From Kiritimatiellia bacterium (GTDB lineage Bacteria; Verrucomicrobiota; Kiritimatiellia; CAIQIC01; Lenti-01): 64,000 nucleotides of DNA. The first letter of the stretch is position 1. Every line of letters starts with the position of its first letter. Location: the NCBI GenBank assembly GCA_017527155.1, contig JAFXQI010000042.1, positions 67,600 to 131,599 of the forward strand, read 5' to 3'. The position numbers and the translations under genes are program-made. Below the pieces are notes generated by a model. That model had not been told where the DNA came from, made no database searches, and was given only the letters and a program-made list of their open reading frames with translations. Shown piece after piece: positions 24,784-63,940 of the stretch.

Positions 24784-24798
24784 CACTTCGGGCGACGC

Positions 24799-37264: not shown

Positions 37265-37514
37265 GATCCATCTCCATTTGGTCTTTTCATCCACTCAACC
37301 AAATCCCCGCCCCGATGGAAACCTTTTTCCGCGCCGGAAGGGGAGGGGGGGCAGGACAAGACCATGGCGTTGGATCGGGCGGCCGTCCTCGGATGGGTTT
37401 CCCGGACGGCCTACCGGAGCGGGGCCGTCACGGAGGTCGCTGCGCCGCATCCCGTGCCGTGCCGATCCCGACTCCGTCGTCCGGTGGAGCGAGCTCGCCT
37501 GGAGCGGGTAAAGT

Positions 37515-37620
37515 TATTCTGTGGCTTCCCAGACGTTTCCCAACCACAAGGTCGCGCGGAAGCGCGACCCTCCCGGGGTGCGCTCTCCACGGGGAGGGAC
37601 GCGCTTCTGCGCGTCCGCCC
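37515..37620 (+). repeat. GC-rich multi-hairpin interspersed element, copy B
   Basis: ttctgtggcttcccagacgtttcccaaccacaaggtcgcgcggaagcgcgaccctcccggggtgcgctctccacggggagggacgcgcttctgcgcgtccgc. Hairpins are ggtcgcgc-GGAA-gcgcgacc, ccctccc...gggaggg and ggacgcgc-TTCT-gcgcgtcc. Confidence 0.6.
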
Positions 37621-40423: not shown

Positions 40424-40536
40424 AACAGCGGAGAATGGCCCCCCACGGGCTCCTCTCCGTGTCGTGTCCGGCTCTCCACTCCCACGGGAGGGATCGTGAG
40501 CGGACGCCGACGAGGGCGGGCTAGAGCGGTTTGCGT

Positions 40537-40640
40537 CATTCTGTGGCTTCCCAGGCGTTTCCCAACCACAAGGTCGCGCGGAAGCGCGACCCTCCCGCTG
40601 TGCTCGCCACGGGGAGGGACGCGCTTCTGCGCGTCCGCGA
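40537..40640 (+). repeat. GC-rich multi-hairpin interspersed element, copy C
   Basis: ttctgtggcttcccaggcgtttcccaaccacaaggtcgcgcggaagcgcgaccctcccgctgtgctcgccacggggagggacgcgcttctgcgcgtccgc. Confidence 0.6.
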
Positions 40641-41877: not shown

Positions 41878-42068
41878 CTGGAAAAGTCTCCTTTCAAGGG
41901 GGGTGGAAGAAACGTTTTCCGTTTGTGCCACAGTCGGACGGCAAAGGCAATGCCAAAATGGGGAAAACGGCGCGCCGCGCAATCAGGCTTGAACCCGTGG
42001 CACGCGGCGCCTATAGTCTCCGCGTTTCCACCCACGGCCCGACGGCCGACGAAAGGAAGGATGTATTC

Positions 42069-43871
42069 ATGGACATGAGAACCCACACCTGCGGCCAGCT
42101 CCGCGCCACCGACGACGGCGCCAACGTCACCCTCTGCGGCTGGGTCGACAGCGTCCGCGACCACGGCGGGCTGATTTTCCTCGACCTGCGCGACCGCTAC
42201 GGCATCACCCAGTGCGTCTTCGATCCCCAGGATTCCCAGGACGCCTGGTCCCGCGCCGAAAGCTGCCGTCCCGAGTATGTCGTGCGCGTCAACGGCACCG
42301 TCCGCGCGCGCCCCGCCGACATGGTCAACGACAAGATCGCCACCGGCGCCATCGAGGTCCGCTGCTCCGGCATCGAGGTCCTCAACCGCGCCAAGACCCC
42401 GCCCTTCCCGCTCGAGGACCGCGAAGCGATGGCCGTCAGCGAGGACCTGCGCCTCGAGTACCGCTACCTCGACCTCCGCCGCCCCTCCATGCAGCGCAAC
42501 CTGCTCCTGCGGCACAAGCTCATCCAGACCGCCCGCAACTACTTCGACGCCAACGGCTTCATGGAGATCGAGACCCCGATCCTCACCAAGTCCACCCCCG
42601 AAGGCGCCCGCGACTACCTCGTGCCCAGCCGCGTGTGCCCGGGCACCTTCTTCGCGCTCCCGCAGGCCCCGCAGCAGTACAAGCAGCTGCTGATGATGTC
42701 CGGCATGGACCGCTACTTCCAGGTCGCCCGCTGCTTCCGCGACGAAGACCTCCGCGCCGACCGCCAGCCCGAGTTCACCCAGCTCGACGTCGAAATGTCG
42801 TTCGTCGGCCAAGAGGACATCATCACCCTTATCGACGGCCTCATCGCCAAGCTCATGGAAGCCGCCGGCAAGCCCGTACCGGCCCTCCCGCTGCCGCGCA
42901 TGACCTGGCGCGAGGCGATGGACCGCTTCGGCTCAGACAAGCCCGACCTCCGCTTCGGCATGGAAATCACCGACCTGGCCGATGTCTTCGCCGGCACCTC
43001 CTTCAAGGTCTTCGCGCGCGCGCTGGAGAGCGGCGGCGTCCTCAAGGCCATCAACGTCAAGGGCGGCTCCCCGCACTGCTCCATCAAGATGGTCGAGCAG
43101 GACTGGACCGGCATGGCCAAGGAAGCCGGACTCGGCGGCCTCGCCTACATCCGCGTGCAGGAAGACGGCACCTGGAAGTCCCCCATCGTCAAGTTCTTCT
43201 CCGACGCCGAGAAGGCCGCCATGACCGCCAAGCTCGGCATCGCCCCCGGCGACCTCGTCCTCTTCGGCGCCGACAAGGCCGAGAAGGTCCTCCCCCTGCT
43301 CGGGCGCATCCGCCTGCTGGCCGCCGCGCAGGTCGGGGCCATCCCGGAGGACGTGTTCAAGTTCACGTGGGTGACCGACTTCCCGCTCTTCGAGCGCAAC
43401 GACGAAGGCCGCCTGGTGAGCGTCCATCATCCCTTCACCTCGCCGAACCCCGACGACATCCCGTTGCTGGACAGCGACCCCGAAAAGGTCCGCGCCGTCG
43501 CCTACGACATCGTCCTCAACGGCACCGAACTCGGCGGCGGGTCCATCCGCATCCACGATCCGGAGTTCCAGGCGCGGATGTTCAAGGTCCTCGGCCTGCC
43601 GGAGGCGGAAATCAAGGACCGCTTCCAGCACCTGATCCGGGCCCTCGAATACGGCGCTCCGCCGCACGGCGGGCTGGCCATCGGCGCCGACCGCCTGGTC
43701 ATGCTGCTGGCGGGCTGCAAGAGCATCCGCGACGTCATCGCCTTCCCGAAGACCCAGAAGGCGATGGACCTGCTGATGTCCGCCCCCGCCACCGTGGACG
43801 CCAAGCAGCTCCGCGACATCCACATCCGCCTCGCCGCGGAGACGCCCCCCGCCGCCCCGGCCGCGGAATGA
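42069..43871 (+). CDS. aspS: Aspartate--tRNA ligase
   Basis: Start MDMRTHTCGQLRA (M49 of ORF 41925..43871). The anticodon-binding OB fold and class II motifs (FRDEDLRADRQPEFTQLD, GGGSIRIH, GLAIGADRL) are present over 600 aa. Confidence 0.9.
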   Translation: MDMRTHTCGQLRATDDGANVTLCGWVDSVRDHGGLIFLDLRDRYGITQCVFDPQDSQDAWSRAESCRPEYVVRVNGTVRARPADMVNDKIATGAIEVRCSGIEVLNRAKTPPFPLEDREAMAVSEDLRLEYRYLDLRRPSMQRNLLLRHKLIQTARNYFDANGFMEIETPILTKSTPEGARDYLVPSRVCPGTFFALPQAPQQYKQLLMMSGMDRYFQVARCFRDEDLRADRQPEFTQLDVEMSFVGQEDIITLIDGLIAKLMEAAGKPVPALPLPRMTWREAMDRFGSDKPDLRFGMEITDLADVFAGTSFKVFARALESGGVLKAINVKGGSPHCSIKMVEQDWTGMAKEAGLGGLAYIRVQEDGTWKSPIVKFFSDAEKAAMTAKLGIAPGDLVLFGADKAEKVLPLLGRIRLLAAAQVGAIPEDVFKFTWVTDFPLFERNDEGRLVSVHHPFTSPNPDDIPLLDSDPEKVRAVAYDIVLNGTELGGGSIRIHDPEFQARMFKVLGLPEAEIKDRFQHLIRALEYGAPPHGGLAIGADRLVMLLAGCKSIRDVIAFPKTQKAMDLLMSAPATVDAKQLRDIHIRLAAETPPAAPAAE

Positions 43872-44140: not shown

Positions 44141-44217
<77 letters not shown>

Positions 44218-44315
44218 TCGTCCGGACGGCCGTGGGGAGGTGGAGAGAGGGGTCGAGCGGTTGTCATCGCTTCTTTTGCGGGGAGGGTGAGTTTGCGGTT
44301 GCCGGAGGATGGGAA

Positions 44316-46142
44316 ATGGTGCATATAGAAGCCATGAGCGAGTCGGACATCCATGACAGGCGGGCGAATGCGGTTGCCGGCGGCATCGTGGCGCCCGGTG
44401 TGTGCCTCTGGGGACGATACGAAGTGGTCGATCCCCTGGGGGAGGGCGTCCTGGGCCGCCTGTGGGTCTGCCGCGACCTGCAGGATGACGGCGCCCCCGT
44501 GGTGCTGCGCTGGCTGCCGCCGGACGTACGGAGGTCGCGGGCCCTGCTCGCCGTCCTGCACGAGAACATCCGCAAGCTCGCGGACAGCACGCATCCGAAC
44601 GTGGCGCCGGTGCGCCAGATGGTGTACGCGGGGAACGAAGTCTTCCTCCTGGGCGACTACGCGCCCGGCGTCCCCCTCTCCGAATGGGCCGAGGGGCTGG
44701 AAGCGGAACGCGGCGGGCGGCGGCCGTCCCTCGGCGAACTGCTGCCGGTGCTCGAGCAGGCCGCCGATGCCCTGGACTACGTGCACGCCCGCGATGCGGC
44801 ACACGGGAACCTGACGCCGGCGAACGTGTTCGTGGACGGGGACGGGGCGGTGCGGGTGACGGACTTCGGGCTCGCGTTCGGCCGCCACACGTCCGTACGG
44901 CGCGCGGAGGATGCATCCGGCGGCGGCGCGGAGGCGGAGGCCCTCGCGACCGCGTTCCGGGCCCCGGAACAGCGCGCCGGATCGGGTGCGGACTCGGCCG
45001 CCGACCAGTACTCGCTGGCGGCGCTCGCGTGCTGGACGATGACCGGCCACGCCACCCCCGCGGATGCCGACTGGGCGGCCTGGCCGCCGAATGCGCGGGC
45101 GGCATTCCGCCGGGCACTGCATCCGAAGCCGGGCAAGCGGTTCGTGTCGTGTTTCGACTTCGTGCGGGCGTTGCGCGGGGAACGCGTCGGGGGGCGGCGC
45201 AAGGGATCGGCCGAGGCGCGCCGGAAGGCGCAGCGCTTCGCGGGGATCGCCGCGGGCGTGGTCGCGCTGGTCGCCCTGGGCGCCGGTGCGGTGCTGGGCA
45301 TCGCACGGGCCCTCAACGGCCGCTCCATCGTGGAGGCGGTGACGGCGGAGCGCCCCGAGGCGGCGGAAACGCCCGTGACCTACGCGGCGCGAAACACGCA
45401 GCCGGTCAAGCCGCTGGTGGCGGAGACGCCGCTGCCGACGGAAGGCAAGCCGTGGGTGGCGTCCACGGTGCCGATGCAGTTCGTGTGGGTGTTCGAGATG
45501 CAGATGTGGATCGGGCGGTTCGAGGTCACCAACGAGGAATACCTCGAGATGAACCCGAACCACGAAAGCGGCCGCTTCGTCAGCCCGAAAGGTTCGATGG
45601 CGGTGTCGCTGGAAGGGAAGAACCATCCGGTCGTGGGCGTGAATTTCGCGGAAGCCTACCGCTACGCGCGGTGGCTGACGGAGCGCGAGCGCGAGGCCGG
45701 GAAGCTGCCGGAGGGCTGGGCGTACCGCCTGCCGTCCGCGGCGGAAGCGGAGGCCTACATCCGGGCCGGCACGGACGCGGAGTACCCGTGGGGCGACGAG
45801 CTGCCGCCGGTGCGCGGCAACTACGCGGACGACACGCTCGCGGCCGTCTTTTCCGACATGCCGGTCATCGAAGGCTACCGCGACGGCGCCATCTGCACCG
45901 CCGAGGTCCAGGAAAGCGGCGAGAACGCGTGGGGCCTCTTCGGCGCGAACGGCAACGTGTGGGAAACCGCCTCGCGCGGGCCGGGCGACTCCCATTTCGG
46001 TGGCTGGTTCGGCGGAGCGTGGGACGACTGGCAACCGAGCCGGCTCCGCGCCGATGCCCGCTACGGTTTCCGCGGCGACGCCCACGGCATGGTCAACGGC
46101 TTCCGGCTCGTGCTCGCGCCGGTTGCCGCCCCGCACGAGTGA
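44316..46142 (+). CDS. Ser/Thr protein kinase-like domain (predicted pseudokinase) fused to a formylglycine-generating-enzyme (FGE/SUMF1)-like domain that lacks the catalytic cysteines
   Basis: Start MVHIEAMSE (M29 of ORF 44232..46142; alternative 44334). The kinase fold retains the Gly loop LGEGVLG, DFG (VTDFGLA) and APE (FRAPEQ). The beta3 Lys is replaced by Arg (VVLRWL) and HRD by HGN (HGNLTPAN). The C-terminal FGE fold (GKNHPVVGVNFAEAYRYARWLTERE...GFRLV) has no Cys pair. A TM helix (GIAAGVVALVALGAGAVLGIA) separates the two domains. Confidence 0.6.
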   Translation: MVHIEAMSESDIHDRRANAVAGGIVAPGVCLWGRYEVVDPLGEGVLGRLWVCRDLQDDGAPVVLRWLPPDVRRSRALLAVLHENIRKLADSTHPNVAPVRQMVYAGNEVFLLGDYAPGVPLSEWAEGLEAERGGRRPSLGELLPVLEQAADALDYVHARDAAHGNLTPANVFVDGDGAVRVTDFGLAFGRHTSVRRAEDASGGGAEAEALATAFRAPEQRAGSGADSAADQYSLAALACWTMTGHATPADADWAAWPPNARAAFRRALHPKPGKRFVSCFDFVRALRGERVGGRRKGSAEARRKAQRFAGIAAGVVALVALGAGAVLGIARALNGRSIVEAVTAERPEAAETPVTYAARNTQPVKPLVAETPLPTEGKPWVASTVPMQFVWVFEMQMWIGRFEVTNEEYLEMNPNHESGRFVSPKGSMAVSLEGKNHPVVGVNFAEAYRYARWLTEREREAGKLPEGWAYRLPSAAEAEAYIRAGTDAEYPWGDELPPVRGNYADDTLAAVFSDMPVIEGYRDGAICTAEVQESGENAWGLFGANGNVWETASRGPGDSHFGGWFGGAWDDWQPSRLRADARYGFRGDAHGMVNGFRLVLAPVAAPHE

Positions 46143-46265: not shown

Positions 46266-47576
46266 TCAGCGGCCGATGCGTTCGACGACGAGGGGCTCGG
46301 CGGGGGCCGGGGCGTCGGCGATGGCGAAAGCGTCGCGGACGTAGGCGAGGGCCTGGTCGAGCTTGCCCGGGTCGTTGGCGTGGATGGTCGCGAGACGGTC
46401 GCCCTTGGATACGGTCTGGCCGACCTTCGCGAGGTTGGAGAGGCCGACGGCGAAGTCGATGCCGTCGTCGGTCTTCTGGCGGCCGCCTCCGAGGACGAGG
46501 GAGGCGCGGCCGATTCCGTCGGCGTCGACGCGGGCGAGGATGCCGGAGGCGGGGGCGACGTAGTCGTGCACGATGGAGGCCGTGGGGAGCTTGGAGAAGT
46601 CGTCGAGGGCGGAGGGATCGCCGCCCTGGAGGGCGGTCATCTTCTTGAAGCATTCGAAGGCGGCGCCGGAACGGAGCAGGCCGAGCAGGATGTCGTTGGC
46701 TTCGGCTTCGGAGGAGGCCTTCCCGGCGAGCTGGAGCATCTCGGCGGTCAGGCGGAGCGTCACCTGCATGAGGTCGCCGTCGAGGTGCTGCCCTTGCAGG
46801 CATTCCATGGACTCGATGATTTCCAGCGAGTTGCCGACGGCCTGGCCGAGGGGCTGGTTCATGGAGGTGATGAAGGCGGTGATGTTCTTGCCCATCGCTT
46901 CGCCGACGCGGACCATCGACTCGGCGAGCTCGCGGGCGGCGGCGACGGACTTCATGAAGGCGCCGGTGCCCCATTTGACGTCGAGGACGAGCGAGTCGAT
47001 GCCCTCGGCGAGCTTCTTGCACATGATGGAGGCGGTGATGAGCGGGATGGAGGGGACGGTGGCGGTGACGTCGCGCAGGGCGTAGAGCTTCTTGTCGGCG
47101 GGGGCGACGTCGCCGGTCTGGCCCATCATGGAGAAGCCGCAGGCCTGGATGATCTCGATGAAGCGCTTCTCGGTGAGGTCGGTGCGGAAGCCGGGGATGG
47201 ACGCGAGCTTGTCGAGCGTGCCGCCGGTGATGCCGAGACCGCGGCCGGAAATCATGGGCACGGCGACGCCCGCGGCGGCGGCGAGGGGGGCGAGGACGAT
47301 GGAAACCTTGTCGCCGATGCCGCCGGTGGAATGCTTGTCCACCTTGGGGAGGGAGATGGCGGACGTGTCGATGACGTCGCCGGTGTGGAGCATGGTGTCG
47401 GTGAGGGCGGCGATTTCGGCGGGGGTCATGCCCTTGAAGTAGATGGCCATCGCCATGGCGGCCATCTGGTAGTCGGGGATGCGGCCGGCGGTGTAGCCTT
47501 GGATGAAGTCGCGGATTTCGTCCGCTTCGAGAACCTGGCCGTCGCGTTTCTTTTCGATGATCCATTGGGGTACCAT
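46266..47576 (-). CDS. deoA: Thymidine (pyrimidine-nucleoside) phosphorylase
   Basis: Start MVPQWIIEKKRDGQVL (M23 of ORF 46266..47642). The motifs DKHSTGGIGDK and ISGRGLGITGGTLDKL are present over 437 aa. Confidence 0.8.
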   Translation of the reverse strand: MVPQWIIEKKRDGQVLEADEIRDFIQGYTAGRIPDYQMAAMAMAIYFKGMTPAEIAALTDTMLHTGDVIDTSAISLPKVDKHSTGGIGDKVSIVLAPLAAAAGVAVPMISGRGLGITGGTLDKLASIPGFRTDLTEKRFIEIIQACGFSMMGQTGDVAPADKKLYALRDVTATVPSIPLITASIMCKKLAEGIDSLVLDVKWGTGAFMKSVAAARELAESMVRVGEAMGKNITAFITSMNQPLGQAVGNSLEIIESMECLQGQHLDGDLMQVTLRLTAEMLQLAGKASSEAEANDILLGLLRSGAAFECFKKMTALQGGDPSALDDFSKLPTASIVHDYVAPASGILARVDADGIGRASLVLGGGRQKTDDGIDFAVGLSNLAKVGQTVSKGDRLATIHANDPGKLDQALAYVRDAFAIADAPAPAEPLVVERIGR

Positions 47577-47710
47577 GGGAATGTCCTTTCGTAGTGGGTT
47601 GCCGATGGCCCGGATTGTGCCGCAAGGGGTGGGGAAAAGCAAGCCCGATGGAAGGGCGGGCGCAGCCCGAAAACGTCAGGGCGCGGACGGGTATGGCGTG
47701 GGGGCGTGTT

Positions 47711-55685: not shown

Positions 55686-58600
55686 CTAGGGGGTGGGGCA
55701 GGTGGCGCGGAGGTGGTAGAAGGTGGCGGGGGTGGAATTGGTGTCGAAGTACATGGAGACGGGGGGGGTGTTGGTGATTGCGAACTGGGAGGTGGATGCG
55801 GGCAGGAGAAGGTTGGTGGTGAAGGAGAGCTGGTAGGTGACGCCGGTGGCGGAGGGCCAGGAGAGGAGGGTGCCGGTGGAGTCGGCTTCGGCGTCGAGAC
55901 GGAAGAAGGACGCGCCGTCGTTGGGGTCGGTGCCGAGGTGGTATTCTTCGAGGTTGGTGAAGCCGTCGGCGTCGGGGTCGAGGTTGGGGTTGCAGGCGGT
56001 GGCGCCGCCGAAGTGGGCGATGGCCCACCAGTCGGGGATGCCGTCGGAGTCGGTGTCGAGGCGGCGGATGGCGTTGGTGAAGGTGACGGAGGCGGTGCCG
56101 AGGGTGTTGGAGGCGATGAAGGTGAAGACGTTGGTGGCGGGATAGCTGGAGTTGATTTCGAGATAGCCGGTGCCGACGTCGAAGGAGTAGGTGTATTCGT
56201 CGGCGACGGTGTGCGCGGCGTCGAGGGTGATCAGGGGGTATTCGCCGGAGACGTATTGGTAGAGGTTCAGGATGGGCGCGGCGTCGAGGTCGACGAGAAG
56301 GTCGCCGAGGGGCTGCCAGGCGGGGGCGTTGCCGGCGGTGACGGTGACGTCCTGTTCGATGCTTCCGGCGGCGTTTTCGGCGCGGAAGGTGAAGGTGTAG
56401 GCCCCGGCGGCGGGGGCTTCGAAGATGAAGATGTCTTCGGCGATGGCATAGGCGGAGTCGTCGATTTCGTCGCCGGTGCGGGAGTCGAAGGTCCCGACGA
56501 GGGTGACGGCGGGGGACGGAAAGCCGGTGACCTGGCTCTTGAGGTCGATGGTGATTTCGCCGCCGACGCCGGTGGTGTAGGCGGTTTCGCCGGTCCAGGC
56601 GGGGGCGGTCTGGTTGGCGTCGAAGAAGTCGAGGATCTTCTTCATGAGGGTGTTGCGGCGGGTGGCGTCGGTGATGGTCTCGAAGGGGAAGCCGGCGACG
56701 ACGGTGCGGCAGACGGAGTTGGAGCAGGCGATGATGGCGCCGTTGGTGCCGGAGGTGCCGCCGTAGGTGGCGGCGACGAAGGCTTCGCCGACGGGGGCGA
56801 GGGTGTCGGGGTAGTTGGCGGCGTAGATGTCGGGGAGGTTGTTGGTGTAGTTGAAGTCGGCGCGGGTGCCGGAGAGGAAGGTGCCGCTCTTGCCGCTGAC
56901 GATGGCGCTGCCGCCGTCGTCGGCGACGTAGGTGCAGTGGAGGTAGTTGGTCATGAAGGCCTTGTCGGAGTCGGAGCCCTTGGCGGAGAGGTCCCAGCCG
57001 ATTTCGGAGCCGGAGACGAAGAGGGCGCCGCCGTTGTCGAGGAAGGCGGCAAGGCGCTGCTGTTCGTCGTAGGTGAAGGTTTCGTCGGCGGTGGATTCTT
57101 CTCCGAGGCACCAGACGACCTTGGGGTAGCGGGCGAGGTCGGAGGAGGTGACGCGGGAGGCGTCCATGTAGTCGAAGGAGCGTCCGGCGGCGGCGATGGC
57201 GTTGCCGTGTTCCTTGACGTAGTCGAAGGAGTTGATCATGCGCGGGCGGACGAGGGTGACGTTGCCCTTGAGGTTGTTGGCGAAGTAGCGGGTCGGGGAC
57301 TGGGCGCCGTCGTTGCGCTTGAAGCCGTCGACGACGAGGACGTCGGCGGTGGAGCCGTCGGAGGAGAGCCCGGCGCCGGCGACGGGCGAGGAGAGGGATT
57401 CGCCGCCGAGGTTGGTGGCGCAGACGCGGAAATAATATGGGTTCCCGGCGGGGAGGTCGGTGAATTTGTGGGCGTATTCGTCGGCGGGGGAGGTGATGGC
57501 GACGGGGTTGCCGAAGGCGTAGCCGTTGGTGGAGACGTAGATGACGAAGCCGGTGTGGGGGTCGGACATGCGGTTGGTGCCGTGGGGCATCTGCCAGGAG
57601 ACGGTGACGCAGTTGGGGCCGGAGTTGGTGGCGGCGACGGCGACGGGGGCGTCGGGGGCGCAGATTTCGCGGACGGTGAGGGTGGAGTCGGTGGCGTAGC
57701 GGGTGACGAAGTGGCGCAGGATGCCGCGCAGGGCGGAGCGGGCGAGCCATTCGCGGCCGGTGGGGGACTTCATGATGGCGGCGTCGAGTTCCTTGTCGTG
57801 GAAGGCGACTTCGGCGATGGTGTTGTCCATCTTGGTCCAGATGGAGCCGCCGTAGATTTCGCCGTAGTGGGAGCCGAGGGTGCGCGCGCAGTCCTGCTGC
57901 CAGGCGGTGGCGACGAGGCCGTGGGCGTGGGCGGCGGTCATGTTGCTGACGATGGAGTTGGCGATGCAGCGGGCGAGGTTGGTCTGTCCGGCGAGGTAGG
58001 AGCCGGTGACGCGGGTGTCGTAGAGGCCCATGCAACCGCGCTGGGAGCCGGAGGCGTTGGAGTGGAAGGAGAGGTACAGGCGGCGCCAGCGCGGCCAGTC
58101 GTTGGTGCGGCACATGGCGTAGGCCATGCGGTTGGGGGCGGAGACGTTGTCGTCCTGGTCGTAGCTGGCGGTGGAGTTGTAGATGGAGTCGGGGAGGCCC
58201 TGGGAGTCGAGGACCATGCGCTGGGTCCAGTAGCGGGCGCCTTCGAGTTCGCGCTCGTAGCCGGATTTGCCGGCGGTGCCGCGCGAGATGTCGCCCATGC
58301 CGTTGCCGAAGCGGACGGCGTCGGCGATGACGGTGCCGTCGTCGAAGCCGGGGGCGAAGTTGGAGATGTTGACGCAGCCGTTGGTGCCGGCGTCGAACCA
58401 GTAGTTGCCGAGCCAGACCCATCCGTTGCCGACCTGGCGGTGGTCGACGCGGACGTCGGTGACGCCGCCGGCGTGGTGGACACGGTAGAGCTGCGGGACG
58501 CGGTCGGAGCCGGGACGCGCCCAGACGTAGACGGGGTATTCGCCGGCCGCGGGAAGGGACGGGCGGAAGGAGGCCCAGGCGGTGGTGCCGGTGGCGCAGA

Positions 58601-61600
58601 TGTTGGCCCAGCGGTAGCCGACTTCGCCGGCCTTGCCGTGGTAGTAGTCGGTCTGGGACGTGTTGCCCCAGTTGCCGCCGTAGGTGACGCGCGAGGCGAG
58701 GGAGGCGGCGGTGTCGACGTTGTCGATGACGACTTCGTTGGTCTGGTAGCCGAGCGGGCGCATGGGGACGACGGTGGCGCCGGCCTTCCACGCCTGCAGG
58801 GCGAAGTAGTTGAGCTGGTCGATCGTCCCCATGTCCTCGACCATGCCGTAGGTGATGCCGCGTCCGGCCGCCCAGGCGTTGGTCTGGCCGTTGGCGGTGA
58901 AGCCGTGGCCCGCGGCGACGTAGAGGACGATGCCGGAAAGCGCCCCGTGCGGCTGCTCGGCGGTGGAGGTGCCGAAGGGGGACCAGGAGTCGGCGTCGGG
59001 TTCCTCGGGGGCCGTGGAGGTGCCCTCGATGGTCAGGCGGCGCCACTGGATGGACCCCGCCGTGCCGGAGTTGCTGGCGCAGAAGATGACGCCGTGCTCG
59101 CCGCCGTCGAGCGCGGGGGAGAAGGAGAAGGTGTTGGTGTAGGTCTGCTTCAGGGGCGTGGCGCAGACGCCGACGGGGGAGAAGCTGGCGCCGCCGTTGG
59201 TGGAGGCGTAGAGGGTGGCCTGGCGGGTGTCCGCGGCGGAGGCGGGGCGGAAGAGGGTGGTCACCTGCGTGACGACGCCGGCGAAGGCCGGGGTGGTGGC
59301 CCAGGAATTGGTGGGTTTGTAGAGGTAGACGTAGCCGGTGTCTCCGCTCGTCTCGTCCGTGGGCCGGACGTAGCAATTGCCGAGGTTCCACGCGTGGTTG
59401 TTGACGTTGGTTTCGCCGCTGTAGAGGGCGTCGTCGCACAAGGACCAGCCTTCGGGGACGGTGAAGTCCCATGTGGTCGATACGGGCGTGATTTCGGTGG
59501 AGGGTTCGTCGCCGCCGGTCTCCTCGGTGGTGGTGGCGGTGGTCTCGACCCAGACGGAGCGGGTGTTCTCGGTGAGGGCCTGGACGCGGATCCAATATGG
59601 GGTTTCGGGGGAGAGGCCTTCGATGGTGTCGGAGGGGGAGGTGACGGTCTTGGGATAGCCTTCGGGGCGGTTGGCGTCGCAGTAGCGGCCGGTGGTGCCG
59701 GAGAAGGAGAGTTTGATGTTCTTGAGGCCCGCGCCGCGGAGGGAGCCGGAGGTGGAGTCGGCGTGGCGTTCGGCGTAGGGGGCGACGATCTTCACGGCGA
59801 GGGTTTCGCCGTCGAGATAGGGGAGGTCGTAGGACTGTGCGGACCAGTCTTCGTCGTCGGTGGAGGCGGCGCGGCACTCGCCGAGGAAGTTCCAGGGGCC
59901 TTGGTCGAGGCGGTAGTAGACGCGGAGGACGGAGCAGGTGATGCCGACGGTGGATTTGGCGGCATTCCACGGGCAGTTGGAGAAGGAGAGGTTCGCGCTG
60001 GTCGCCCCGTAGAGCGGGAAATCCCACGATTGGAGAGCCTGTCCGGGATGGCCGGCCAGGTAGTGTCCCGCATATTTGGCCGTGGAGCAGTAGCCGGGGC
60101 CTGCGCCGAGGTTGCTGGAGGTCGTGACGGTGCGGACGGTGCCGGTGTAGCACCAGGACTGGCCGGTGAGGAACTGGTTCGTCCCGAGGGAGGCCGACGG
60201 GCAGGTGGCGGTCCAGTTGGTGTAGGGGCCGCTGGCGACGTCGACCTGGTAGGCGGCGGCGCCAGGGGCGGCGGTCCAGGAGAGGGCGATGTTGGTGGCG
60301 GCGGGCTCGGCGGCGAGGCCGGAGGGTACCATGCCGGGGGTGACCGTCACGATGTCGGACCAGTTCGTGGAGGAGGCGTTGCGGACGCGCAGGCTGACGG
60401 GCGAGGAGAGGCCGGTGAGGTTGGTCGCGCAGGTGTCGGCGAGGGGGGTTCCGGTGGCGGCGACCCAGTTGGTGGTCGTGCCGGTGGCAACGAAGGAGTG
60501 GAGCAGGACCGTCGTGGGCTCCCCGGTCGTCACGTTTTCGAAGCGGAAAACGGTTCCGCCGGGATTGGAGATGGAACAGGCCGTGGCGTAGTCGAGGATG
60601 GCCGAGACGTTGGAGCAGGCGTAGGTGCCGACCGTGGTGAAGCCGGTGCTCCCGGCGGGGGCGGCCAGGACGCGGAGTTTGCGGCCTTCGTAGTTCGACG
60701 CGGCGGCGGCGCGAACGCGGACGGCCAGCTGCGTGACAGTGCCGGAAACGGGCGGCGTCTGGATGTAGGAATTGGAGTACGTCAGGTAAACGTAGCCGGG
60801 GTCCTGGTAGTTGGTGATGCCGGGGCGGAGTTCCAGCTTGCCGCGGAGCCCCCAGGCGCTGCCGGCCACGTTGACGGTGGTGGGCGTGGTCGTGGTGACG
60901 TTGTTCGTCACCCAGCCCTCGGCGGAGGAGAACGAATTGGAGAAGACGAGCGGCACGTCCTCCCACCAGCCGTCCGCGAGCCCTTCGGGCGTGGGGGCGG
61001 ACTGGACGACGTAGCCGGCGGGATCCACGACGGCGGGGGTCCAGGAGAAGAGCGCGGAGGAGGCGCCGATGCCCGTGGCGCGGGCGTCGGGGGCGCTGGC
61101 GCCGGAGCCGCCGCCGGAGCCGCCGCCGGAGTAGGTGTCGAACTTCTCGCCGAGGAGTTCCCACAGCTCCTCCGCTTCCGGCGCGTGGGTCAGGCACCAG
61201 ATGCCGACGCCGCCGAGGCCCTTGGACTTCGCGTAGTCGTACTTGAGGCCGAGCGATTCCGCGTCGTCGTAGAAACACTGGTAGGCGTTGGTGCCGGACT
61301 TGTACGCGTAGTACGGGACGGACCCGTTCGAGTCCCATTGGCGCCCGTGGTTTTCGGCGGCGGCGACCGCGTTGGGGTATGTCACGGCGGCCGAGTAGGA
61401 CGAGCCGCAGGACTTCGAGCCGATGCTGGTGGTGGCGGACTTCCAGCGGCGGCCGTAGTAGGGCACCGCCAGCATGAGGTGGGCGGCGTTGGTCATCTTG
61501 TTGAGATAATAGCGGGTCGAATAGTCCACGCTGCACCAGGAGGATGCCCCCTGCCACTGTGCCGACGAATAGAGCGGCGCGACGGGCCCGGGCGTGGCGG

Positions 61601-62444
61601 AACCGGCATAATAATAGTCGTAGCCCATGATGATCGAGTAATCCACGCCGATCTTCTCGTACTCCCCGACCGCGAAGTCCGCGTACCAGTCCACCGACGG
61701 CAGGCAGATCGAGACTTCCAGGTTGGCCGCGTGCGCCTTCGCGACGAGATTGCTCATGAACGCCGTCAGCGCCTTCGTCGCCCCCGACCACGACCCGACC
61801 GACTCGAAGTCGATGCAGATCCCGTCCCCGCCGCGTGCCGTGGTTTTCGCGACGAGATTGGTGATCAGCTTCGTGCAGGCCGCGCTGTTGGTGAGCAGCG
61901 CGTGGTTGGCGGTCTCGCCGAAGAGCGTCGCCGTGAGGAGAACCTTCACGCCGTTGGAATGCGCGGTTTCGACGACGGGATCCGTGTTCCACCCATGGAG
62001 GCTGGAGATGCTTCCGGCGCTCCCGACCTCGGCGGAAAAATACGCGACGTGGGTCAGGTTGGAGTAGTCATAGGAGAGATAATCCCCCGCCTCGGCCCAG
62101 TAGGGATGCCACCCGAGCACGCGCGCCCCGTCCGCGATGCCGGTGGCCCGCGGCGTGATGACCGACTTCTTCGGCACGGCCCTGAGCGCCTTGCGCCGCT
62201 GCGCCGCCGTCTGCCCGTCCGGATGCGCCTCCATCTCCAGCTGGTGGATGGGGACGAACCCCGCGAAATCCGCCGGCGGCGCGAACGGGAAATCCGCCTC
62301 CGAAACGTCCGGCACCTCGAACGGCGGCGGATCGTCGGCCACGTCGCCTTCTTCCTCGATCTGGGCCTTCGCGCACCATGGCACGGCCACGGCGAAAAGG
62401 GCGGAAAGGGTCAATGCACGGCGGACAATACGGATGGCTTTCAT
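55686..62444 (-). CDS. Giant secreted multidomain protein (2252 aa): GH18 chitinase-like domain, beta-sandwich (FN3/Ig-like) repeats, an Amidase_3/M14-like zinc-hydrolase domain, and C-terminal thrombospondin-type-3 Ca-binding repeats
   Basis: Start MKAIRIVRRALTLSALFAVAVPWCAKAQ (signal peptide) inside ORF 55686..63578. The GH18 catalytic motif is DGICIDFE (DxxDxDxE) with GVDYSIIMGYDYYY. An amidase-like region follows (VAAGHG...LSFHSNA...AEVAFHDKELD). The TSP3-like stretch is DTDSDGIPDWW...DPDADGFTNLEEYHLGTDPND. A G/S linker is encoded by ggagccgccgcc repeats. Confidence 0.7.
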   Translation of the reverse strand: MKAIRIVRRALTLSALFAVAVPWCAKAQIEEEGDVADDPPPFEVPDVSEADFPFAPPADFAGFVPIHQLEMEAHPDGQTAAQRRKALRAVPKKSVITPRATGIADGARVLGWHPYWAEAGDYLSYDYSNLTHVAYFSAEVGSAGSISSLHGWNTDPVVETAHSNGVKVLLTATLFGETANHALLTNSAACTKLITNLVAKTTARGGDGICIDFESVGSWSGATKALTAFMSNLVAKAHAANLEVSICLPSVDWYADFAVGEYEKIGVDYSIIMGYDYYYAGSATPGPVAPLYSSAQWQGASSWCSVDYSTRYYLNKMTNAAHLMLAVPYYGRRWKSATTSIGSKSCGSSYSAAVTYPNAVAAAENHGRQWDSNGSVPYYAYKSGTNAYQCFYDDAESLGLKYDYAKSKGLGGVGIWCLTHAPEAEELWELLGEKFDTYSGGGSGGGSGASAPDARATGIGASSALFSWTPAVVDPAGYVVQSAPTPEGLADGWWEDVPLVFSNSFSSAEGWVTNNVTTTTPTTVNVAGSAWGLRGKLELRPGITNYQDPGYVYLTYSNSYIQTPPVSGTVTQLAVRVRAAAASNYEGRKLRVLAAPAGSTGFTTVGTYACSNVSAILDYATACSISNPGGTVFRFENVTTGEPTTVLLHSFVATGTTTNWVAATGTPLADTCATNLTGLSSPVSLRVRNASSTNWSDIVTVTPGMVPSGLAAEPAATNIALSWTAAPGAAAYQVDVASGPYTNWTATCPSASLGTNQFLTGQSWCYTGTVRTVTTSSNLGAGPGYCSTAKYAGHYLAGHPGQALQSWDFPLYGATSANLSFSNCPWNAAKSTVGITCSVLRVYYRLDQGPWNFLGECRAASTDDEDWSAQSYDLPYLDGETLAVKIVAPYAERHADSTSGSLRGAGLKNIKLSFSGTTGRYCDANRPEGYPKTVTSPSDTIEGLSPETPYWIRVQALTENTRSVWVETTATTTEETGGDEPSTEITPVSTTWDFTVPEGWSLCDDALYSGETNVNNHAWNLGNCYVRPTDETSGDTGYVYLYKPTNSWATTPAFAGVVTQVTTLFRPASAADTRQATLYASTNGGASFSPVGVCATPLKQTYTNTFSFSPALDGGEHGVIFCASNSGTAGSIQWRRLTIEGTSTAPEEPDADSWSPFGTSTAEQPHGALSGIVLYVAAGHGFTANGQTNAWAAGRGITYGMVEDMGTIDQLNYFALQAWKAGATVVPMRPLGYQTNEVVIDNVDTAASLASRVTYGGNWGNTSQTDYYHGKAGEVGYRWANICATGTTAWASFRPSLPAAGEYPVYVWARPGSDRVPQLYRVHHAGGVTDVRVDHRQVGNGWVWLGNYWFDAGTNGCVNISNFAPGFDDGTVIADAVRFGNGMGDISRGTAGKSGYERELEGARYWTQRMVLDSQGLPDSIYNSTASYDQDDNVSAPNRMAYAMCRTNDWPRWRRLYLSFHSNASGSQRGCMGLYDTRVTGSYLAGQTNLARCIANSIVSNMTAAHAHGLVATAWQQDCARTLGSHYGEIYGGSIWTKMDNTIAEVAFHDKELDAAIMKSPTGREWLARSALRGILRHFVTRYATDSTLTVREICAPDAPVAVAATNSGPNCVTVSWQMPHGTNRMSDPHTGFVIYVSTNGYAFGNPVAITSPADEYAHKFTDLPAGNPYYFRVCATNLGGESLSSPVAGAGLSSDGSTADVLVVDGFKRNDGAQSPTRYFANNLKGNVTLVRPRMINSFDYVKEHGNAIAAAGRSFDYMDASRVTSSDLARYPKVVWCLGEESTADETFTYDEQQRLAAFLDNGGALFVSGSEIGWDLSAKGSDSDKAFMTNYLHCTYVADDGGSAIVSGKSGTFLSGTRADFNYTNNLPDIYAANYPDTLAPVGEAFVAATYGGTSGTNGAIIACSNSVCRTVVAGFPFETITDATRRNTLMKKILDFFDANQTAPAWTGETAYTTGVGGEITIDLKSQVTGFPSPAVTLVGTFDSRTGDEIDDSAYAIAEDIFIFEAPAAGAYTFTFRAENAAGSIEQDVTVTAGNAPAWQPLGDLLVDLDAAPILNLYQYVSGEYPLITLDAAHTVADEYTYSFDVGTGYLEINSSYPATNVFTFIASNTLGTASVTFTNAIRRLDTDSDGIPDWWAIAHFGGATACNPNLDPDADGFTNLEEYHLGTDPNDGASFFRLDAEADSTGTLLSWPSATGVTYQLSFTTNLLLPASTSQFAITNTPPVSMYFDTNSTPATFYHLRATCPTP

Positions 62445-62651
62445 GCTTTCGATTTTACCCCCACGCGCGCGCGGAGGAAAGCCGAAAAAGCGGGGAGGAA
62501 TGGAGCGGAGGGCATCCCGCTTTGTGCAAGGTGCAAGCCCGGAAGCGGAGAGGGAGGACGGGGGAAAACTCCGATTGGTCCGATGGCCCGGGATGCGGGA
62601 GAAACGCGCGAAGCCGGCGGTTCCAGCGGGGAATGGGGGGCTTCCTCTTTT

Positions 62652-62848
62652 CCTGCAGCTTTCCGGACGTTTTTCCACCACAAGGTCGCGCGGAAGCGCG
62701 ACCCTCCCGGTGCGTTCTCCAGGGGGAGGGACGCGCTTCTGCGCGTCCGCGGGGGAAACCGGACGTTTTTCCACCACAAGGTCGCGCGGAAGCGCGACCC
62801 TCCCGGTGCGTTCTCCACGGGGAGGGACGCGCTTCTGCGCGTCCGCGG
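62652..62848 (+). repeat. GC-rich multi-hairpin interspersed element, two tandem copies (D and E)
   Basis: Two consecutive units of about 98 bp lie immediately upstream of the giant gene's start. Each is ccaccacaaggtcgcgcggaagcgcgaccctcccggtgcgttctcca(g/c)ggggagggacgcgcttctgcgcgtccgc. The 204-aa ORF 62441..63055 (-) with a duplicated peptide is their translation artefact. Confidence 0.6.
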
Positions 62849-63061
62849 TGGAAATGCCCGGAGGGACGATGGATGGAGGCCCCCCTGTTCCTTTGAGCGG
62901 TTCAAGAAACAGTACAGCTCCTGTTTCGCCTTCCAGACTGGTGGGGGCGAGCTCTCCGAGCGAGCCGTTCCTTGCGCCTCTGAGGCTCGCACGGAGTGCT
63001 CGCCCTGCCAGGCCCCTGTCACGGGGCGACCACGGTATTTCTCGACCCGCTCCAAACCGCG

Positions 63062-63940
63062 CTAGGGGGCGAAGACGCGGGTGCGGAAGAAGCGGACGAC
63101 GGCGCGGTGGCGGATGCGGATGCGGTTCTGGTAGGGGAGAAGGCTGGCGGGGGGCCAGTGGAGCATCTCCATTTCCAGGTCCAGCGACGGGGTGTAGCGG
63201 TTGTCGAGGTACCACGCGTAGGCGAGGCCGAAGAAGATGCCGCAGGGCAGGAAGCCGGTATCGCGGGGAACCGCGCGCCACCAGCGGAGGGGCTCGCCGG
63301 GGCGCGGCTGCATCTGGGACAGGTGGAGGCCTTCGGCGAGGTCGCGGTCGCCGAAGAAGCAGTGGCGGGCGCCTGCGGGGCGGAGGCGGATTTCGTAGAC
63401 GCGGCAGGCGGCGGAGGGGTCGTCGAGCCAGCGTTTTTCGTCGATGTAGTCGCCGAGGAGGGATTCGCCGAGGGCGATGGCGAAGTTGGCCATCAGGGTC
63501 TGCGGGGTGGCCAGGGCCTGGGCGTGGAGGTTGATGGTGGAGGTGGCGGGATCGTAGTAGCCCTGGATGTTGTCCCATTCCTGGCTGCGGGTCCAGCGGT
63601 CGGCGGGGACGACGCGGATGCGGCGGACGCGGGCGAGGTGGGAGGGGAGGATGTCGGCGTGCTTCCAGAGGAAGTCTTCGAGGAGGGGCCGGAGGGTGGG
63701 GGGGGAGACGGGGATGCGGGAGAGGGCGGTGCGGCAGGACTCCATGCGGGAAAAGGCGGTGGGGGCGTCGGTGGCGAGGGGGGAGGGGACCGCGGCGTTT
63801 CCGCCGCGGCGCGGGACCTCTTGGCGCGGGACTGCCGGGAGAGCGGGGGGGCGAGGGCGGGCGGGGCGGGGGGAGGCGGAGAGTTCTTCGTAGAGGGTGC
63901 GGAGGGCGGCGGCGAAGCGGGCGGCGTCGTGGTGGAGCAT
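63062..63940 (-). CDS. Hypothetical protein
   Basis: The 292-aa ORF starts MLHHDAARFAAALRTLYEEL. Its C-terminal half (WDNIQGYYDPATSTINLHAQALATPQTLMANFAIALGESLLGDYIDEKRWL) looks globular and non-repetitive. No family recognised. The true start could lie beyond 63940. Confidence 0.35.
   Translation of the reverse strand: MLHHDAARFAAALRTLYEELSASPRPARPRPPALPAVPRQEVPRRGGNAAVPSPLATDAPTAFSRMESCRTALSRIPVSPPTLRPLLEDFLWKHADILPSHLARVRRIRVVPADRWTRSQEWDNIQGYYDPATSTINLHAQALATPQTLMANFAIALGESLLGDYIDEKRWLDDPSAACRVYEIRLRPAGARHCFFGDRDLAEGLHLSQMQPRPGEPLRWWRAVPRDTGFLPCGIFFGLAYAWYLDNRYTPSLDLEMEMLHWPPASLLPYQNRIRIRHRAVVRFFRTRVFAP

What the first reader, a model, noticed from the sequence alone, without database searches (positions are those of the whole stretch)
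44316..46142. Membrane-spanning fusion of a degenerate Ser/Thr-kinase domain and a cysteine-less FGE/SUMF1-like domain
The kinase-like N-domain keeps the fold landmarks (Gly loop, DFG, APE). The invariant beta3 Lys is Arg (VVLRWL), and the catalytic HRD Asp is Asn (HGNLTPAN). This predicts a pseudokinase. After a TM helix, the C-terminal FGE-fold domain lacks the two active-site cysteines required for formylglycine generation. This predicts a non-catalytic, probably ligand-binding module located outside the membrane. The architecture resembles a one-component transmembrane sensor built from two inactivated enzyme folds.
Basis: partly seen in the sequence, partly recalled or inferred. Interest (0 to 1): 0.55.

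Follow-up and report, generated by a model that had tools for sequence, protein, structure and literature searches.

The report
Membrane pseudokinase with non-catalytic FGE-like domain
This gene from a rumen Kiritimatiellia bacterium encodes a single-pass membrane protein whose inner kinase-like half has lost the residues needed for phosphotransfer and whose outer sulfatase-maturase-like half has lost its catalytic cysteines; the kinase-dead state is conserved across a whole bacterial class, but it is one branch of a receptor-kinase design that is common in related bacteria.

Summary
ORF 44316-46142 (+) encodes a 608-aa protein, identical to NCBI MBR3583263.1. It has a Hanks-type kinase fold (aa 28-295), one TM helix (311-329) and an FGE-sulfatase-fold domain (366-602).

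- The beta3 Lys is Arg65 and the HRD Asp is Asn165. DFG and APE are kept.
- Human FGE Cys336 aligns to an invariant Asp571, and Cys341 falls in a 2-residue deletion.
- These changes are family-wide. In 63 orthologues, all from Kiritimatiellia or other PVC-labelled MAGs, none has Lys/Asp at these sites. The clade is monophyletic (99/100 bootstraps) next to a large clade of canonical kinase-TM-FGE-like receptors.
- Both halves are under purifying selection: dN/dS is about 0.2-0.26 for the kinase-like half and 0.04 for the FGE-like half against the two closest relatives.

Best reading: a catalytically dead receptor-like or scaffold protein. The periplasmic FGE/C-type-lectin-like module binds a ligand or envelope partner. 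The cytoplasmic pseudokinase acts non-catalytically, as an allosteric partner, scaffold or phospho-acceptor.

No partner kinase was found nearby. In environmental relatives the gene follows an LPG_synthase_TM + TolB-like propeller gene, but not in this window.

It is a new pseudokinase variant of a known architecture, of moderate interest. The database name "nonheme iron enzyme" is probably wrong.

The parts
44304..44309 (+). Shine-Dalgarno GGAGGA, 6 nt before the ATG start
   Evidence: the 608-aa product from ATG 44316 equals NCBI MBR3583263.1
44316..46142 (+). CDS of the 608-aa transmembrane pseudokinase / FGE-like protein
   Evidence: GC3 0.89, typical of coding frames in this window
44397..45200 (+). 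Cytoplasmic Hanks-type kinase-like (pseudokinase) domain, aa 28-295
   Evidence: Pfam Pkinase E 6.5e-16. AF2 pLDDT about 90. Foldseek hits PknA/PknI/PknB with target-normalised TM 0.69-0.84. dN/dS 0.21-0.26.
44508..44510 (+). Arg65 (CGC) at the beta3 'VAIK' lysine position
   Evidence: Arg in 60 of 63 family members, never Lys
44802..44825 (+). Degenerate catalytic loop HGNLTPAN (canonical HRDLKPxN); Asn165 replaces the catalytic Asp
   Evidence: this position is Asn or Glu in all family members, and the catalytic-loop Asn position varies (N/D/E/K/S/A)
44862..44870 (+). Retained DFG motif (Asp183)
   Evidence: Asp in 57 of 62 scored members, lost (GFG) in the P0147/L028/L029 subclade
44961..44969 (+). 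Retained APE motif
   Evidence: invariant
45195..45209 (+). Juxtamembrane basic motif RRKGS (family consensus R-R-x-R-[S/T]); Ser298 is a candidate phospho-acceptor
   Evidence: S/T in 60 of 63 members; the motif is absent from canonical paralogues. The phospho-acceptor role is inference only.
45246..45302 (+). Single transmembrane helix core, aa 311-329 (IAAGVVALVALGAGAVLGI)
   Evidence: Kyte-Doolittle 2.44; K/R 7 upstream vs 3 downstream; conserved in 29/29; AF2 helix 299-333
45303..45410 (+). Poorly conserved periplasmic linker, aa 330-365
   Evidence: alignment A1; pLDDT <50 for aa 335-360
45411..46121 (+). Periplasmic FGE-sulfatase-fold (C-type-lectin-like) domain, aa 366-602, without catalytic cysteines
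   Evidence: Pfam PF03781 E 1.3e-19. Profile vs PDB: PorK 6e-24, SUMF2 6e-21, SUMF1 1e-20. Foldseek hits are only FGE-fold proteins, with low TM-scores. dN/dS 0.04 against the two closest relatives.
46020..46028 (+). W569-D570-D571; the second Asp occupies the position of human FGE Cys336, and the Cys341 position is deleted
   Evidence: hmmsearch of recalled human SUMF1 against the family profile; W569 and D571 invariant

Best explanation
The gene encodes a bitopic inner-membrane, receptor-like protein that has no enzymatic activity of either parental type.

Shown:
- The protein has a cytoplasmic Hanks-kinase fold, one TM helix and a periplasmic FGE/C-type-lectin-like fold.
- The kinase fold lacks the beta3 Lys and the catalytic Asp, and has no conserved alphaC Glu.
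- The FGE-like fold lacks both copper-binding cysteines and has no DinB/iron domain.
- The family descends from canonical PVC kinase-TM-FGE receptors and has kept the dead active site throughout Kiritimatiellia under purifying selection.

Inferred:
- The periplasmic domain binds a ligand or an envelope protein. In environmental relatives this may be the TolB-like propeller of the co-transcribed LPG_synthase_TM protein.
- The pseudokinase domain passes this on non-catalytically. It could pair with, or allosterically regulate, a canonical Hanks kinase paralogue, as HER3 and KSR do. It could act as a decoy. Or it could be a docking or phospho-acceptor platform, with candidate sites Ser298 in R-R-x-R-[S/T] and Ser74 in R-R-S, as the M. 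tuberculosis MviN pseudokinase is for PknB and FhaA.
For: - Domain calls and motif alignments.
- Family-wide invariance of Arg65 and absence of the HRD Asp in 63 sequences.
- No alternative conserved Lys.
- The closest outgroups keep VA[VL]K / HRD / DFG and share the lineage markers LPPE, DQY[AS] and SCxDF..AL.
- The family is monophyletic in 99/100 NJ bootstraps.
- dN/dS is 0.21-0.26 for the kinase-like half and 0.04 for the FGE-like half against the two closest relatives, so neither half is decaying and the outer domain is the more constrained.
- A subclade (P0147, L028, L029) has additionally lost the DFG Asp and the HRD His but keeps the FGE-like domain. This argues that the kinase-like half does not need nucleotide chemistry.
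- Topology follows from the single TM helix and the positive-inside bias.
- The FGE fold is present without its catalytic Cys. Published precedent for FGE-fold modules as binding or sensor domains: TvpA and DGR targets (PMC5758913), STAND sensors (PMC13581612).
- A conserved same-strand upstream gene, LPG_synthase_TM + PD40/Tricorn_N, occurs in at least 22 of 31 species-level loci.
Against: - No ligand, partner kinase, FHA protein or phosphatase was identified. The window has no other kinase or FGE-like gene, and none lies within 8-10 kb in 38 related loci.
- The upstream partner gene is absent from this window and from the host-associated relatives.
- The retained DFG Asp, part of the Gly-rich loop, the invariant Arg65 and His163 leave nucleotide binding possible.
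- The C-terminal half of the FGE-like domain is modelled with low confidence, so no binding pocket could be examined.
- The phospho-acceptor idea rests only on conserved S/T residues in basic motifs.
Confidence: 0.55

Rival explanations
1. Structural envelope component rather than a signalling protein. The periplasmic FGE-like domain forms a stable complex with an envelope partner, as the FGE-fold lipoprotein PorK/GldK does with PorN in the type IX secretion ring. In environmental relatives the partner would be the TolB-like propeller of the upstream LPG_synthase_TM protein. The pseudokinase would be only a cytoplasmic anchor or assembly domain.
For: - The best PDB sequence match of the domain profile is PorK/GldK (6e-24), and NCBIfam shows a weak GldK hit.
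- There is a conserved operon-like pairing with a membrane protein carrying a PD40/TolB-like propeller.
- The outer domain is far more constrained than the inner one against the two closest relatives (dN/dS 0.04 vs about 0.2).
- No signalling partners lie nearby.
Against: - The family is nested among canonical receptor kinases and keeps a well-folded kinase-like domain under purifying selection, with family-specific invariant residues.
- The partner gene is missing next to the gene in the window and in host-associated relatives.
- The match to PorK is far below the GldK family cut-off (47 vs 350 bits).
Confidence: 0.2
2. Atypical active enzyme. The kinase-like domain still binds nucleotide, using Arg65 and the DFG Asp. 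It catalyses either weak phosphotransfer (as reported for HER3) or a non-canonical reaction such as AMPylation or glutamylation (as in SelO or SidJ).
For: DFG Asp183 is kept in 57 of 62 scored members, and Arg65, His163, G42 and G47 are invariant in the core family. A basic residue is conserved at beta3 rather than drifting. The bacterial STK atlas raises non-canonical ligand binding for a Lys-to-Arg family (10.1101/2025.01.12.632604).
Against: - The catalytic base is missing in every member.
- The catalytic-loop Asn is variable (N/D/E/K/S/A), and the alphaC Glu is not conserved.
- A subclade has lost the DFG Asp, the HRD His and the beta3 Arg while keeping the rest of the protein.
- The window protein has no Lys anywhere in the N-lobe strands.
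Confidence: 0.12
3. Genuine FGE / SUMF1-EgtB-PvdO-type oxidative enzyme, as the NCBI product name ('SUMF1/EgtB/PvdO family nonheme iron enzyme') implies.
For: Significant PF03781 match; product name in NCBI.
Against: - Both copper-binding cysteines of FGE are absent.
- No DinB-type iron-binding domain was detected.
- From general knowledge, FGE needs O2 and Kiritimatiellia are anaerobes.
- Many PF03781 members are non-catalytic (PMC5758913).
Confidence: 0.03
4. Decaying relic: a former receptor kinase on its way to becoming a pseudogene.
For: Loss of catalytic residues; variable genomic context in host-associated relatives.
Against: The ORF is intact in more than 50 sequence clusters and 31 species-level genomes. 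dN/dS is 0.14-0.33 overall. There are many invariant residues, and the same substitutions are fixed across the clade.
Confidence: 0.02

Closest known systems
Canonical PVC-type kinase-TM-FGE-sulfatase receptor kinases (PGAP name 'bifunctional serine/threonine-protein kinase/formylglycine-generating enzyme family protein'; e.g. P0056, P0148, P0071 here)
   Same: - Same order of parts: N-terminal cytoplasmic Hanks domain, single TM helix, periplasmic FGE-like domain.
- Shared lineage motifs: LPPE after beta3, DQY[AS], SCxDF..AL.
- The FGE-like domains are 40-50% identical to that of P0148.
- Described as common in Planctomycetota (PMC11032199).
   Different: Those proteins keep VA[VL]K, HRD, the catalytic-loop Asn and DFG (107 of the best-scoring representatives). 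This family has Arg/Asn(Glu) at the two key sites. It has family-specific RRS[KR] and RRxR[S/T] motifs. It forms its own clade in 99/100 bootstraps.
M. tuberculosis MviN (Rv3910) pseudokinase module (ActPs3 family in the bacterial STK atlas)
   Same: A bacterial membrane protein with an intracellular Hanks-type pseudokinase domain, then a TM helix and an extracytoplasmic carbohydrate-binding-like domain. It acts as a phospho-acceptor and docking platform for PknB and FhaA (from my own knowledge of Gee et al. 2012; the atlas cites the structure, 10.1101/2025.01.12.632604).
   Different: MviN is fused to a MurJ flippase, is actinobacterial, has a truncated activation loop and lacks the DFG Asp. 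The outer domain is not an FGE fold. No sequence-level relationship was tested here.
Eukaryotic receptor and scaffold pseudokinases HER3 (HRD to HRN) and KSR1/2 (beta3 Lys to Arg)
   Same: The same two substitutions occur here together. The environmental consensus HRNLKPSN is HER3-like, and VxLRWL is KSR-like. Both eukaryotic proteins work as allosteric partners of active kinases (my own knowledge; KSR1 is noted in 10.1101/2025.01.12.632604).
   Different: This is analogy only. [quoted passage not shown]
Non-catalytic FGE-fold proteins: SUMF2/pFGE, PorK/GldK, TvpA, PvdO
   Same: FGE-sulfatase fold without the catalytic cysteine pair, used for binding or assembly. All are significant profile hits (PMC5758913 for TvpA).
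   Different: None of them is fused to a kinase-like domain through a TM helix. No DGR-type variable region or template repeat is present here. The scores are far below the GldK and PvdO family cut-offs.
Seven bacterial pseudokinase families of the 2025 STK atlas (CP1, DYD, ActPs1-3, DLHK, GLW)
   Same: A conserved bacterial Hanks-type family with a substituted VAIK Lys and HRD Asp.
   Different: As described there, the families lacking both residues either also lack the DFG Asp (ActPs1-3, GLW) or carry four other C-terminal domains (DLHK). FGE-sulfatase is mentioned only with the canonical Proteo1 family.

Membership tests
Hanks-type (eukaryotic-like) Ser/Thr protein kinases, catalytically competent | Protein kinase fold (Pfam PF00069) | tested here: met
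   E 6.5e-16, 59 bits vs cut-off 31.7. Foldseek hits PknA/PknI/PknB with target-normalised TM 0.69-0.84.
Hanks-type (eukaryotic-like) Ser/Thr protein kinases, catalytically competent | beta3 'VAIK' lysine | tested here: not met
   Arg65 in the window protein. Arg in 60 of 63 family members and Val/Leu in 3; never Lys. No alternative Lys is invariant or present in the N-lobe strands of the window protein.
Hanks-type (eukaryotic-like) Ser/Thr protein kinases, catalytically competent | Catalytic Asp of HRD and Asn of HRDxxxxN | tested here: not met
   The Asp position is Asn165 here and Asn or Glu in all members. The Asn position is kept here (N170) but is variable in the family.
Hanks-type (eukaryotic-like) Ser/Thr protein kinases, catalytically competent | Metal-binding Asp of DFG | tested here: met
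   D183; kept in 57 of 62 scored members.
Hanks-type (eukaryotic-like) Ser/Thr protein kinases, catalytically competent | Phosphotransfer activity in vitro | not testable with these tools
   Needs purified protein.
Formylglycine-generating enzyme (FGE/SUMF1) | FGE-sulfatase fold (PF03781) | tested here: met
   E 1.3e-19. Profile hits to SUMF1 and bacterial FGEs at about 1e-20 over the whole domain.
Formylglycine-generating enzyme (FGE/SUMF1) | Two copper-binding catalytic cysteines (human Cys336/Cys341) | tested here: not met
   Cys336 aligns to Asp571 and Cys341 falls in a 2-residue deletion. No Cys is conserved in the domain.
EgtB/OvoA-type nonheme iron sulfoxide synthases (implied by the NCBI product name) | N-terminal DinB-like domain with a 3-His iron site preceding the FGE-like domain | tested here: not met
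   Pfam finds only Pkinase, PK_Tyr_Ser-Thr and FGE-sulfatase. EgtB and OvsA are only marginal hits, E 5e-5 to 1e-4.
PorK/GldK (T9SS ring lipoprotein) | Score above the TIGR03525 equivalog cut-off; lipoprotein; T9SS gene context | tested here: not met
   47 bits vs cut-off 350. There is no lipobox but an internal TM helix instead. No T9SS genes were seen among the neighbours.
Kinase-TM-FGE-sulfatase receptor architecture of PVC bacteria | Kinase(-like) domain, single TM helix and C-terminal periplasmic FGE-like domain, with lineage motifs LPPE / DQY / SCxDF | tested here: met
   literature PMC11032199.
DGR-diversified FGE/C-type-lectin target proteins (TvpA-like) | Variable region at the C-terminus with a cognate template repeat and a reverse transcriptase nearby | tested here: not met
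   No second copy of the gene's 3' region in the 64-kb window. The C-terminal region is highly conserved, not variable.
Anti-phage kinase systems (PD-T4-6, MADS Mad6, PglW, Stk2) | Family-level score and a defence-island context | tested here: not met
   Only generic kinase-domain similarity was found (PADLOC E 1e-24 over the kinase core; NCBIfam Mad6 69 vs 460 bits and PglW 32 vs 990 bits). The neighbours are housekeeping genes.

The most novel reading that the evidence does not exclude
This is a class-wide, single-orthologue receptor pseudokinase of Kiritimatiellia. It heterodimerises with canonical kinase-TM-FGE paralogues through its periplasmic and/or kinase-like domains and controls them allosterically. 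That would be a bacterial counterpart of HER3/EGFR or KSR/RAF signalling. In free-living members it would be coupled to an envelope lipid or glycan module (the LPG_synthase_TM-TolB-like protein).
Probability: 0.2. Interest if true: 0.65.

Novelty: new variant of a known kind. Interest (0 to 1): 0.4.

Why it matters
Bacterial Hanks-type pseudokinases are few and mostly actinobacterial. A 2025 atlas lists seven families, and none is described with a TM helix plus an FGE-like ectodomain.

This family adds a clean evolutionary case. There was one loss of the catalytic Lys and Asp at the base of a clade. The dead kinase fold and, even more strongly, the periplasmic FGE-like module were then maintained for a long time. 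If the protein regulates canonical paralogues, it would show that receptor-pseudokinase logic arose independently in bacteria.

There is also a practical point. The current public annotation ('SUMF1/EgtB/PvdO family nonheme iron enzyme'; JGI 'formylglycine-generating enzyme required for sulfatase activity') is misleading. It could inflate counts of sulfatase-maturation capacity in Kiritimatiellia, a group studied for sulfated-polysaccharide degradation.

Tried and rejected
1. Synteny as a functional clue for the window gene. AspRS, tRNA-Arg(TCT) and thymidine phosphorylase flank it here. None of these is conserved even in relatives with 95% nucleotide identity (L001) or 85% amino-acid identity (L032). 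The tRNA adjacency is not a conserved integration site.
2. A nearby active kinase, FHA protein or phosphatase. None was found in the window or in 38 loci.
3. DGR target hypothesis for the FGE-like C-terminus. There is no template repeat.
4. Defence-system membership. Only generic kinase similarity was found.
5. Fold-level confirmation of the FGE domain. Both AF2 models are poor in the C-terminal half (pLDDT <50). Foldseek TM-scores are low (0.3-0.4), although all significant hits are FGE-fold proteins. I therefore rely on the sequence profiles.
6. A shifted catalytic Lys, as in WNK. Position 75 is Lys in 56 of 63 members but Arg in the window protein, and it lies in the beta3-alphaC loop. I do not consider it a replacement.
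7. Checking whether the host-associated clade keeps the LPG_synthase_TM-PD40 partner elsewhere. This is not proof of absence.
8. A first NJ bootstrap script timed out. It was redone with a faster distance routine.
Full report
**What is there.**
The finding sits on one intact ORF on the + strand. The mechanical ORF starts at GTG 44232, only 15 nt after a tRNA-Arg(TCT) gene at 44141-44217. The biologically sensible start is ATG 44316, which is preceded by GGAGGA at 44304-44309. The resulting 608-aa protein is identical to NCBI MBR3583263.1 from a Kiritimatiellae MAG. There it is named 'SUMF1/EgtB/PvdO family nonheme iron enzyme'. The window is about 70% G+C, and the ORF has the GC3 bias of real genes here.

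**Check of the observation.**
Pfam finds Pkinase (aa 35-245, E 6.5e-16) and FGE-sulfatase (aa 396-551, E 1.3e-19). Pairwise HMMER alignments to solved bacterial kinases (StkP, PknA, PknB) give these equivalences:
- VVLRWL aligns with VAVKVL, so the beta3 Lys is Arg65.
- HGNLTPAN aligns with HRDLKPQN, so the catalytic Asp is Asn165.
- The Gly-rich loop (GEGVLG), DFG and APE are in place.

The kinase-like domain of the window protein has only three lysines (87, 271, 274), and none is near the nucleotide site.

One strongly hydrophobic segment (aa 311-329) follows a run of Arg/Lys, with 7 K/R in the 20 residues before it and 3 after. The same pattern is seen in all 29 aligned homologues. AlphaFold2 models a long helix at aa 299-333 between two folded domains. 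The kinase-like domain is modelled confidently, and Foldseek places it with PknA, PknI and PknB at target-normalised TM 0.69-0.84.

A profile of the C-terminal domain matches the complete FGE fold of PorK/GldK, SUMF2, SUMF1, bacterial FGEs, TvpA, PvdO and ToxD (E 6e-24 to 4e-13). I aligned human SUMF1 to that profile. In that alignment Cys336 lies on Asp571 of an invariant W-D/E-D motif, and Cys341 lies in a two-residue deletion. The domain contains one cysteine (C527), which is not conserved.

**The family.**
A word-indexed search of 5.8 billion proteins found about 54 clusters with the same length and architecture at 45-99% identity. After these the score drops sharply from 492 to 141 bits. 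A scan of species-representative genomes found 31 loci. All are in MAGs labelled Kiritimatiellia/Kiritimatiellae or with broader or older PVC labels (Verrucomicrobiota, Lentisphaerae, Opitutia, Spartobacteria). The closest (96% amino-acid identity) is a rumen MAG.

Across 63 family sequences:
- The beta3 position is Arg in 60.
- The HRD-Asp position is Asn, or Glu in three, and never Asp.
- The catalytic-loop Asn position varies.
- The alphaC acidic residue is not conserved.
- The DFG Asp is kept in 57 and APE in all.
- A divergent subclade (P0147, L028, L029) has gone further. It has Val/Leu at beta3, the His of HRD is lost, and DFG has become GFG. Yet its FGE-like domain still scores nearly 300 bits against the family model.

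An exhaustive HMMER search of 1.84 billion cluster representatives found 14,138 proteins at E<=1e-30. Almost all of the best 150 are kinase + FGE-like proteins of varied length. Where the kinase domain could be aligned, 107 carry the canonical Lys and Asp.

The nearest canonical group (e.g. P0056, P0148) shares lineage-specific motifs with the family: LPPE after beta3, DQY[AS] and SCxDF..AL. It reads VA[VL]K and HRD at the key sites. That group is large, with 1,270 proteins at E<=1e-40.

A neighbour-joining tree of kinase domains recovers the pseudokinase family as one clade in 99 of 100 bootstraps. The simplest history is a single inactivation at the base of a Kiritimatiellia lineage, followed by long retention.

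**Selection.**
The table gives dN/dS for the window gene against three relatives.

| Relative | Kinase-like half | FGE-like half | Whole gene |
|---|---|---|---|
| L001 | 0.21 | 0.04 | 0.14 |
| L032 | 0.25 | 0.04 | 0.19 |
| L002 | 0.26 | 0.26 | 0.33 |

The poorly conserved N-terminus and linker are much less constrained. The protein is therefore maintained, and against the two closest relatives the periplasmic module is the most constrained part.

**Context.**
In the window the neighbours are housekeeping genes:
- aspartyl-tRNA synthetase (41925-43871, +) with a terminator-like hairpin;
- tRNA-Arg with its own promoter-like site;
- a convergent thymidine phosphorylase (46266-47642, -);
- no second kinase or FGE-like gene.

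None of these neighbours is conserved in relatives, even at 95% nucleotide identity. Homology to L001 begins 26 nt upstream of the ATG and ends 20 nt before the stop. Other host-associated relatives sit next to a subtilase and a polysaccharide deacetylase, or among RNA-metabolism genes.

In at least 22 of the 31 species-level loci, all from the more distant environmental branch, the gene lies about 80-150 nt downstream of another gene on the same strand. That gene encodes a roughly 690-aa protein with an LPG_synthase_TM (UPF0104/YbhN, flippase-like) membrane domain fused to a Tricorn_N/PD40, TolB-like beta-propeller. No such match was seen for the host-associated clade among the top 120 hits. 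This is the only recurrent functional association found. It points to the cell envelope.

**How it most likely works.**
- Shown: the protein is a bitopic membrane protein with a cytoplasmic dead-kinase fold and a periplasmic FGE/C-type-lectin-like fold without the FGE catalytic pair. Both are conserved. It descends from canonical receptor kinases.
- From the literature: FGE-fold domains without the cysteines act as binding or assembly modules. Examples are TvpA and other DGR targets (PMC5758913), sensor domains of bacterial STAND immune proteins (PMC13581612) and PorK/GldK. [quoted passage not shown]
- Inferred: the outer domain binds a ligand or an envelope protein, and the pseudokinase domain transmits or scaffolds without catalysis.

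Three sub-models cannot be separated here:
1. an allosteric partner or decoy of canonical paralogues (the family combines the KSR-type Lys-to-Arg change with the HER3-type HRD-to-HRN change);
2. a phospho-acceptor and docking platform like the M. tuberculosis MviN pseudokinase;
3. a mainly structural envelope complex with the TolB-like protein.

For the docking-platform sub-model there are family-specific, nearly invariant hydroxyl residues in basic motifs. Ser74 lies in R-R-S-[K/R] (61/63) and Ser/Thr298 lies in the juxtamembrane R-R-x-R-[S/T] (60/63). Both motifs are absent from canonical paralogues. This is suggestive only.

Residual nucleotide binding or atypical catalysis cannot be excluded, because the DFG Asp, Arg65 and His163 are conserved. 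However, the subclade that lost these residues argues that such chemistry is dispensable.

**Comparison with what is known, and novelty.**
The architecture is ordinary for PVC bacteria. Non-catalytic FGE-fold domains are ordinary too. What is not described, as far as the searchable literature shows, is a conserved pseudokinase version of this receptor. The 2025 atlas of bacterial Ser/Thr kinases lists seven pseudokinase families. Those lacking both Lys and Asp also lack the DFG Asp or have a different multi-domain architecture, and FGE-sulfatase is mentioned only with a canonical family. Searches for Kiritimatiellia kinases and for FGE-kinase pseudokinases found nothing specific. I could not test membership in the atlas families directly. 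I therefore rate this a new variant of a known kind, of moderate interest. The main additions here are:
- the substitutions are clade-wide and ancient;
- the FGE side was never 'inactivated' specifically in this family;
- the design belongs to a very large PVC receptor-kinase radiation;
- the public product name is misleading.

Noticed in passing
window 37493-37618 (+), 40521-40638 (+), 14877-15002 (-), 62658-62750 and 62759-62846 (+, tandem); also L001 3073-3205 and L002 6517-6616, 17483-17559: A repeated element of about 95-125 nt at 81-96% identity. It has an invariant core containing two GC-rich hairpins (GGTCGCGC-GGAA-GCGCGACC and GGACGCGC-TTCT-GCGCGTCC) around a CCCTCCC...GGGAGGG stem. 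The predicted fold is -58.5 kcal/mol (z = -4.9). It matches no Rfam family at gathering threshold. Three of the window copies lie between the coding ORFs picked by GC3 bias. The element is shared with other rumen Kiritimatiellae MAGs. It looks like a REP/MITE-like repeat or a small RNA family.
   Followed up: partly
window 55686-63578 (-): A giant ORF of 2630 aa with coding-like GC3 bias. The two tandem copies of the repeat element fall inside its 5' part, so the true start is probably further downstream. Its function was not examined.
   Followed up: no
L011 5759-7849, L037 7860-9920 and equivalents in at least 22 loci: A conserved fusion protein of about 690 aa: an LPG_synthase_TM (UPF0104/YbhN, flippase-like) membrane domain plus a Tricorn_N/PD40 TolB-like beta-propeller. 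It lies immediately upstream of the pseudokinase gene in environmental Kiritimatiellia. More distant homologues (35-48% identity) exist in other phyla, e.g. Arenicella. It is uncharacterised.
   Followed up: partly
representative proteins P0164, P0166, P0167, P0173, P0182, P0184, P0186, P0187, P0220: A group of proteins of about 1100-1700 aa with two tandem kinase-like domains before a C-terminal FGE-like domain. The scored domain reads C[AST]VK / H[HNG]D / DYG or DHG, with the catalytic-loop Asn replaced by Ser. This is another atypical branch of the same radiation.
   Followed up: no
window 44316-46142; NCBI MBR3583263.1 and JGI homologues: The public product names ('SUMF1/EgtB/PvdO family nonheme iron enzyme', 'formylglycine-generating enzyme required for sulfatase activity') assign an enzymatic function that the sequence does not support.
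   Followed up: yes
window 44290 and 46122 (ends of homology to L001): The gene is 95% identical in nucleotides to that of rumen MAG RUG11196, but homology stops within 26 nt upstream of the start and 20 nt before the stop. The flanks are unrelated. This indicates rearrangement or gene-sized exchange between closely related rumen lineages. The mechanism was not determined.
   Followed up: partly
window 24702-24889 (+): An adjacent tRNA-Leu(CAA) and tRNA-Ser(GGA) pair.
   Followed up: no
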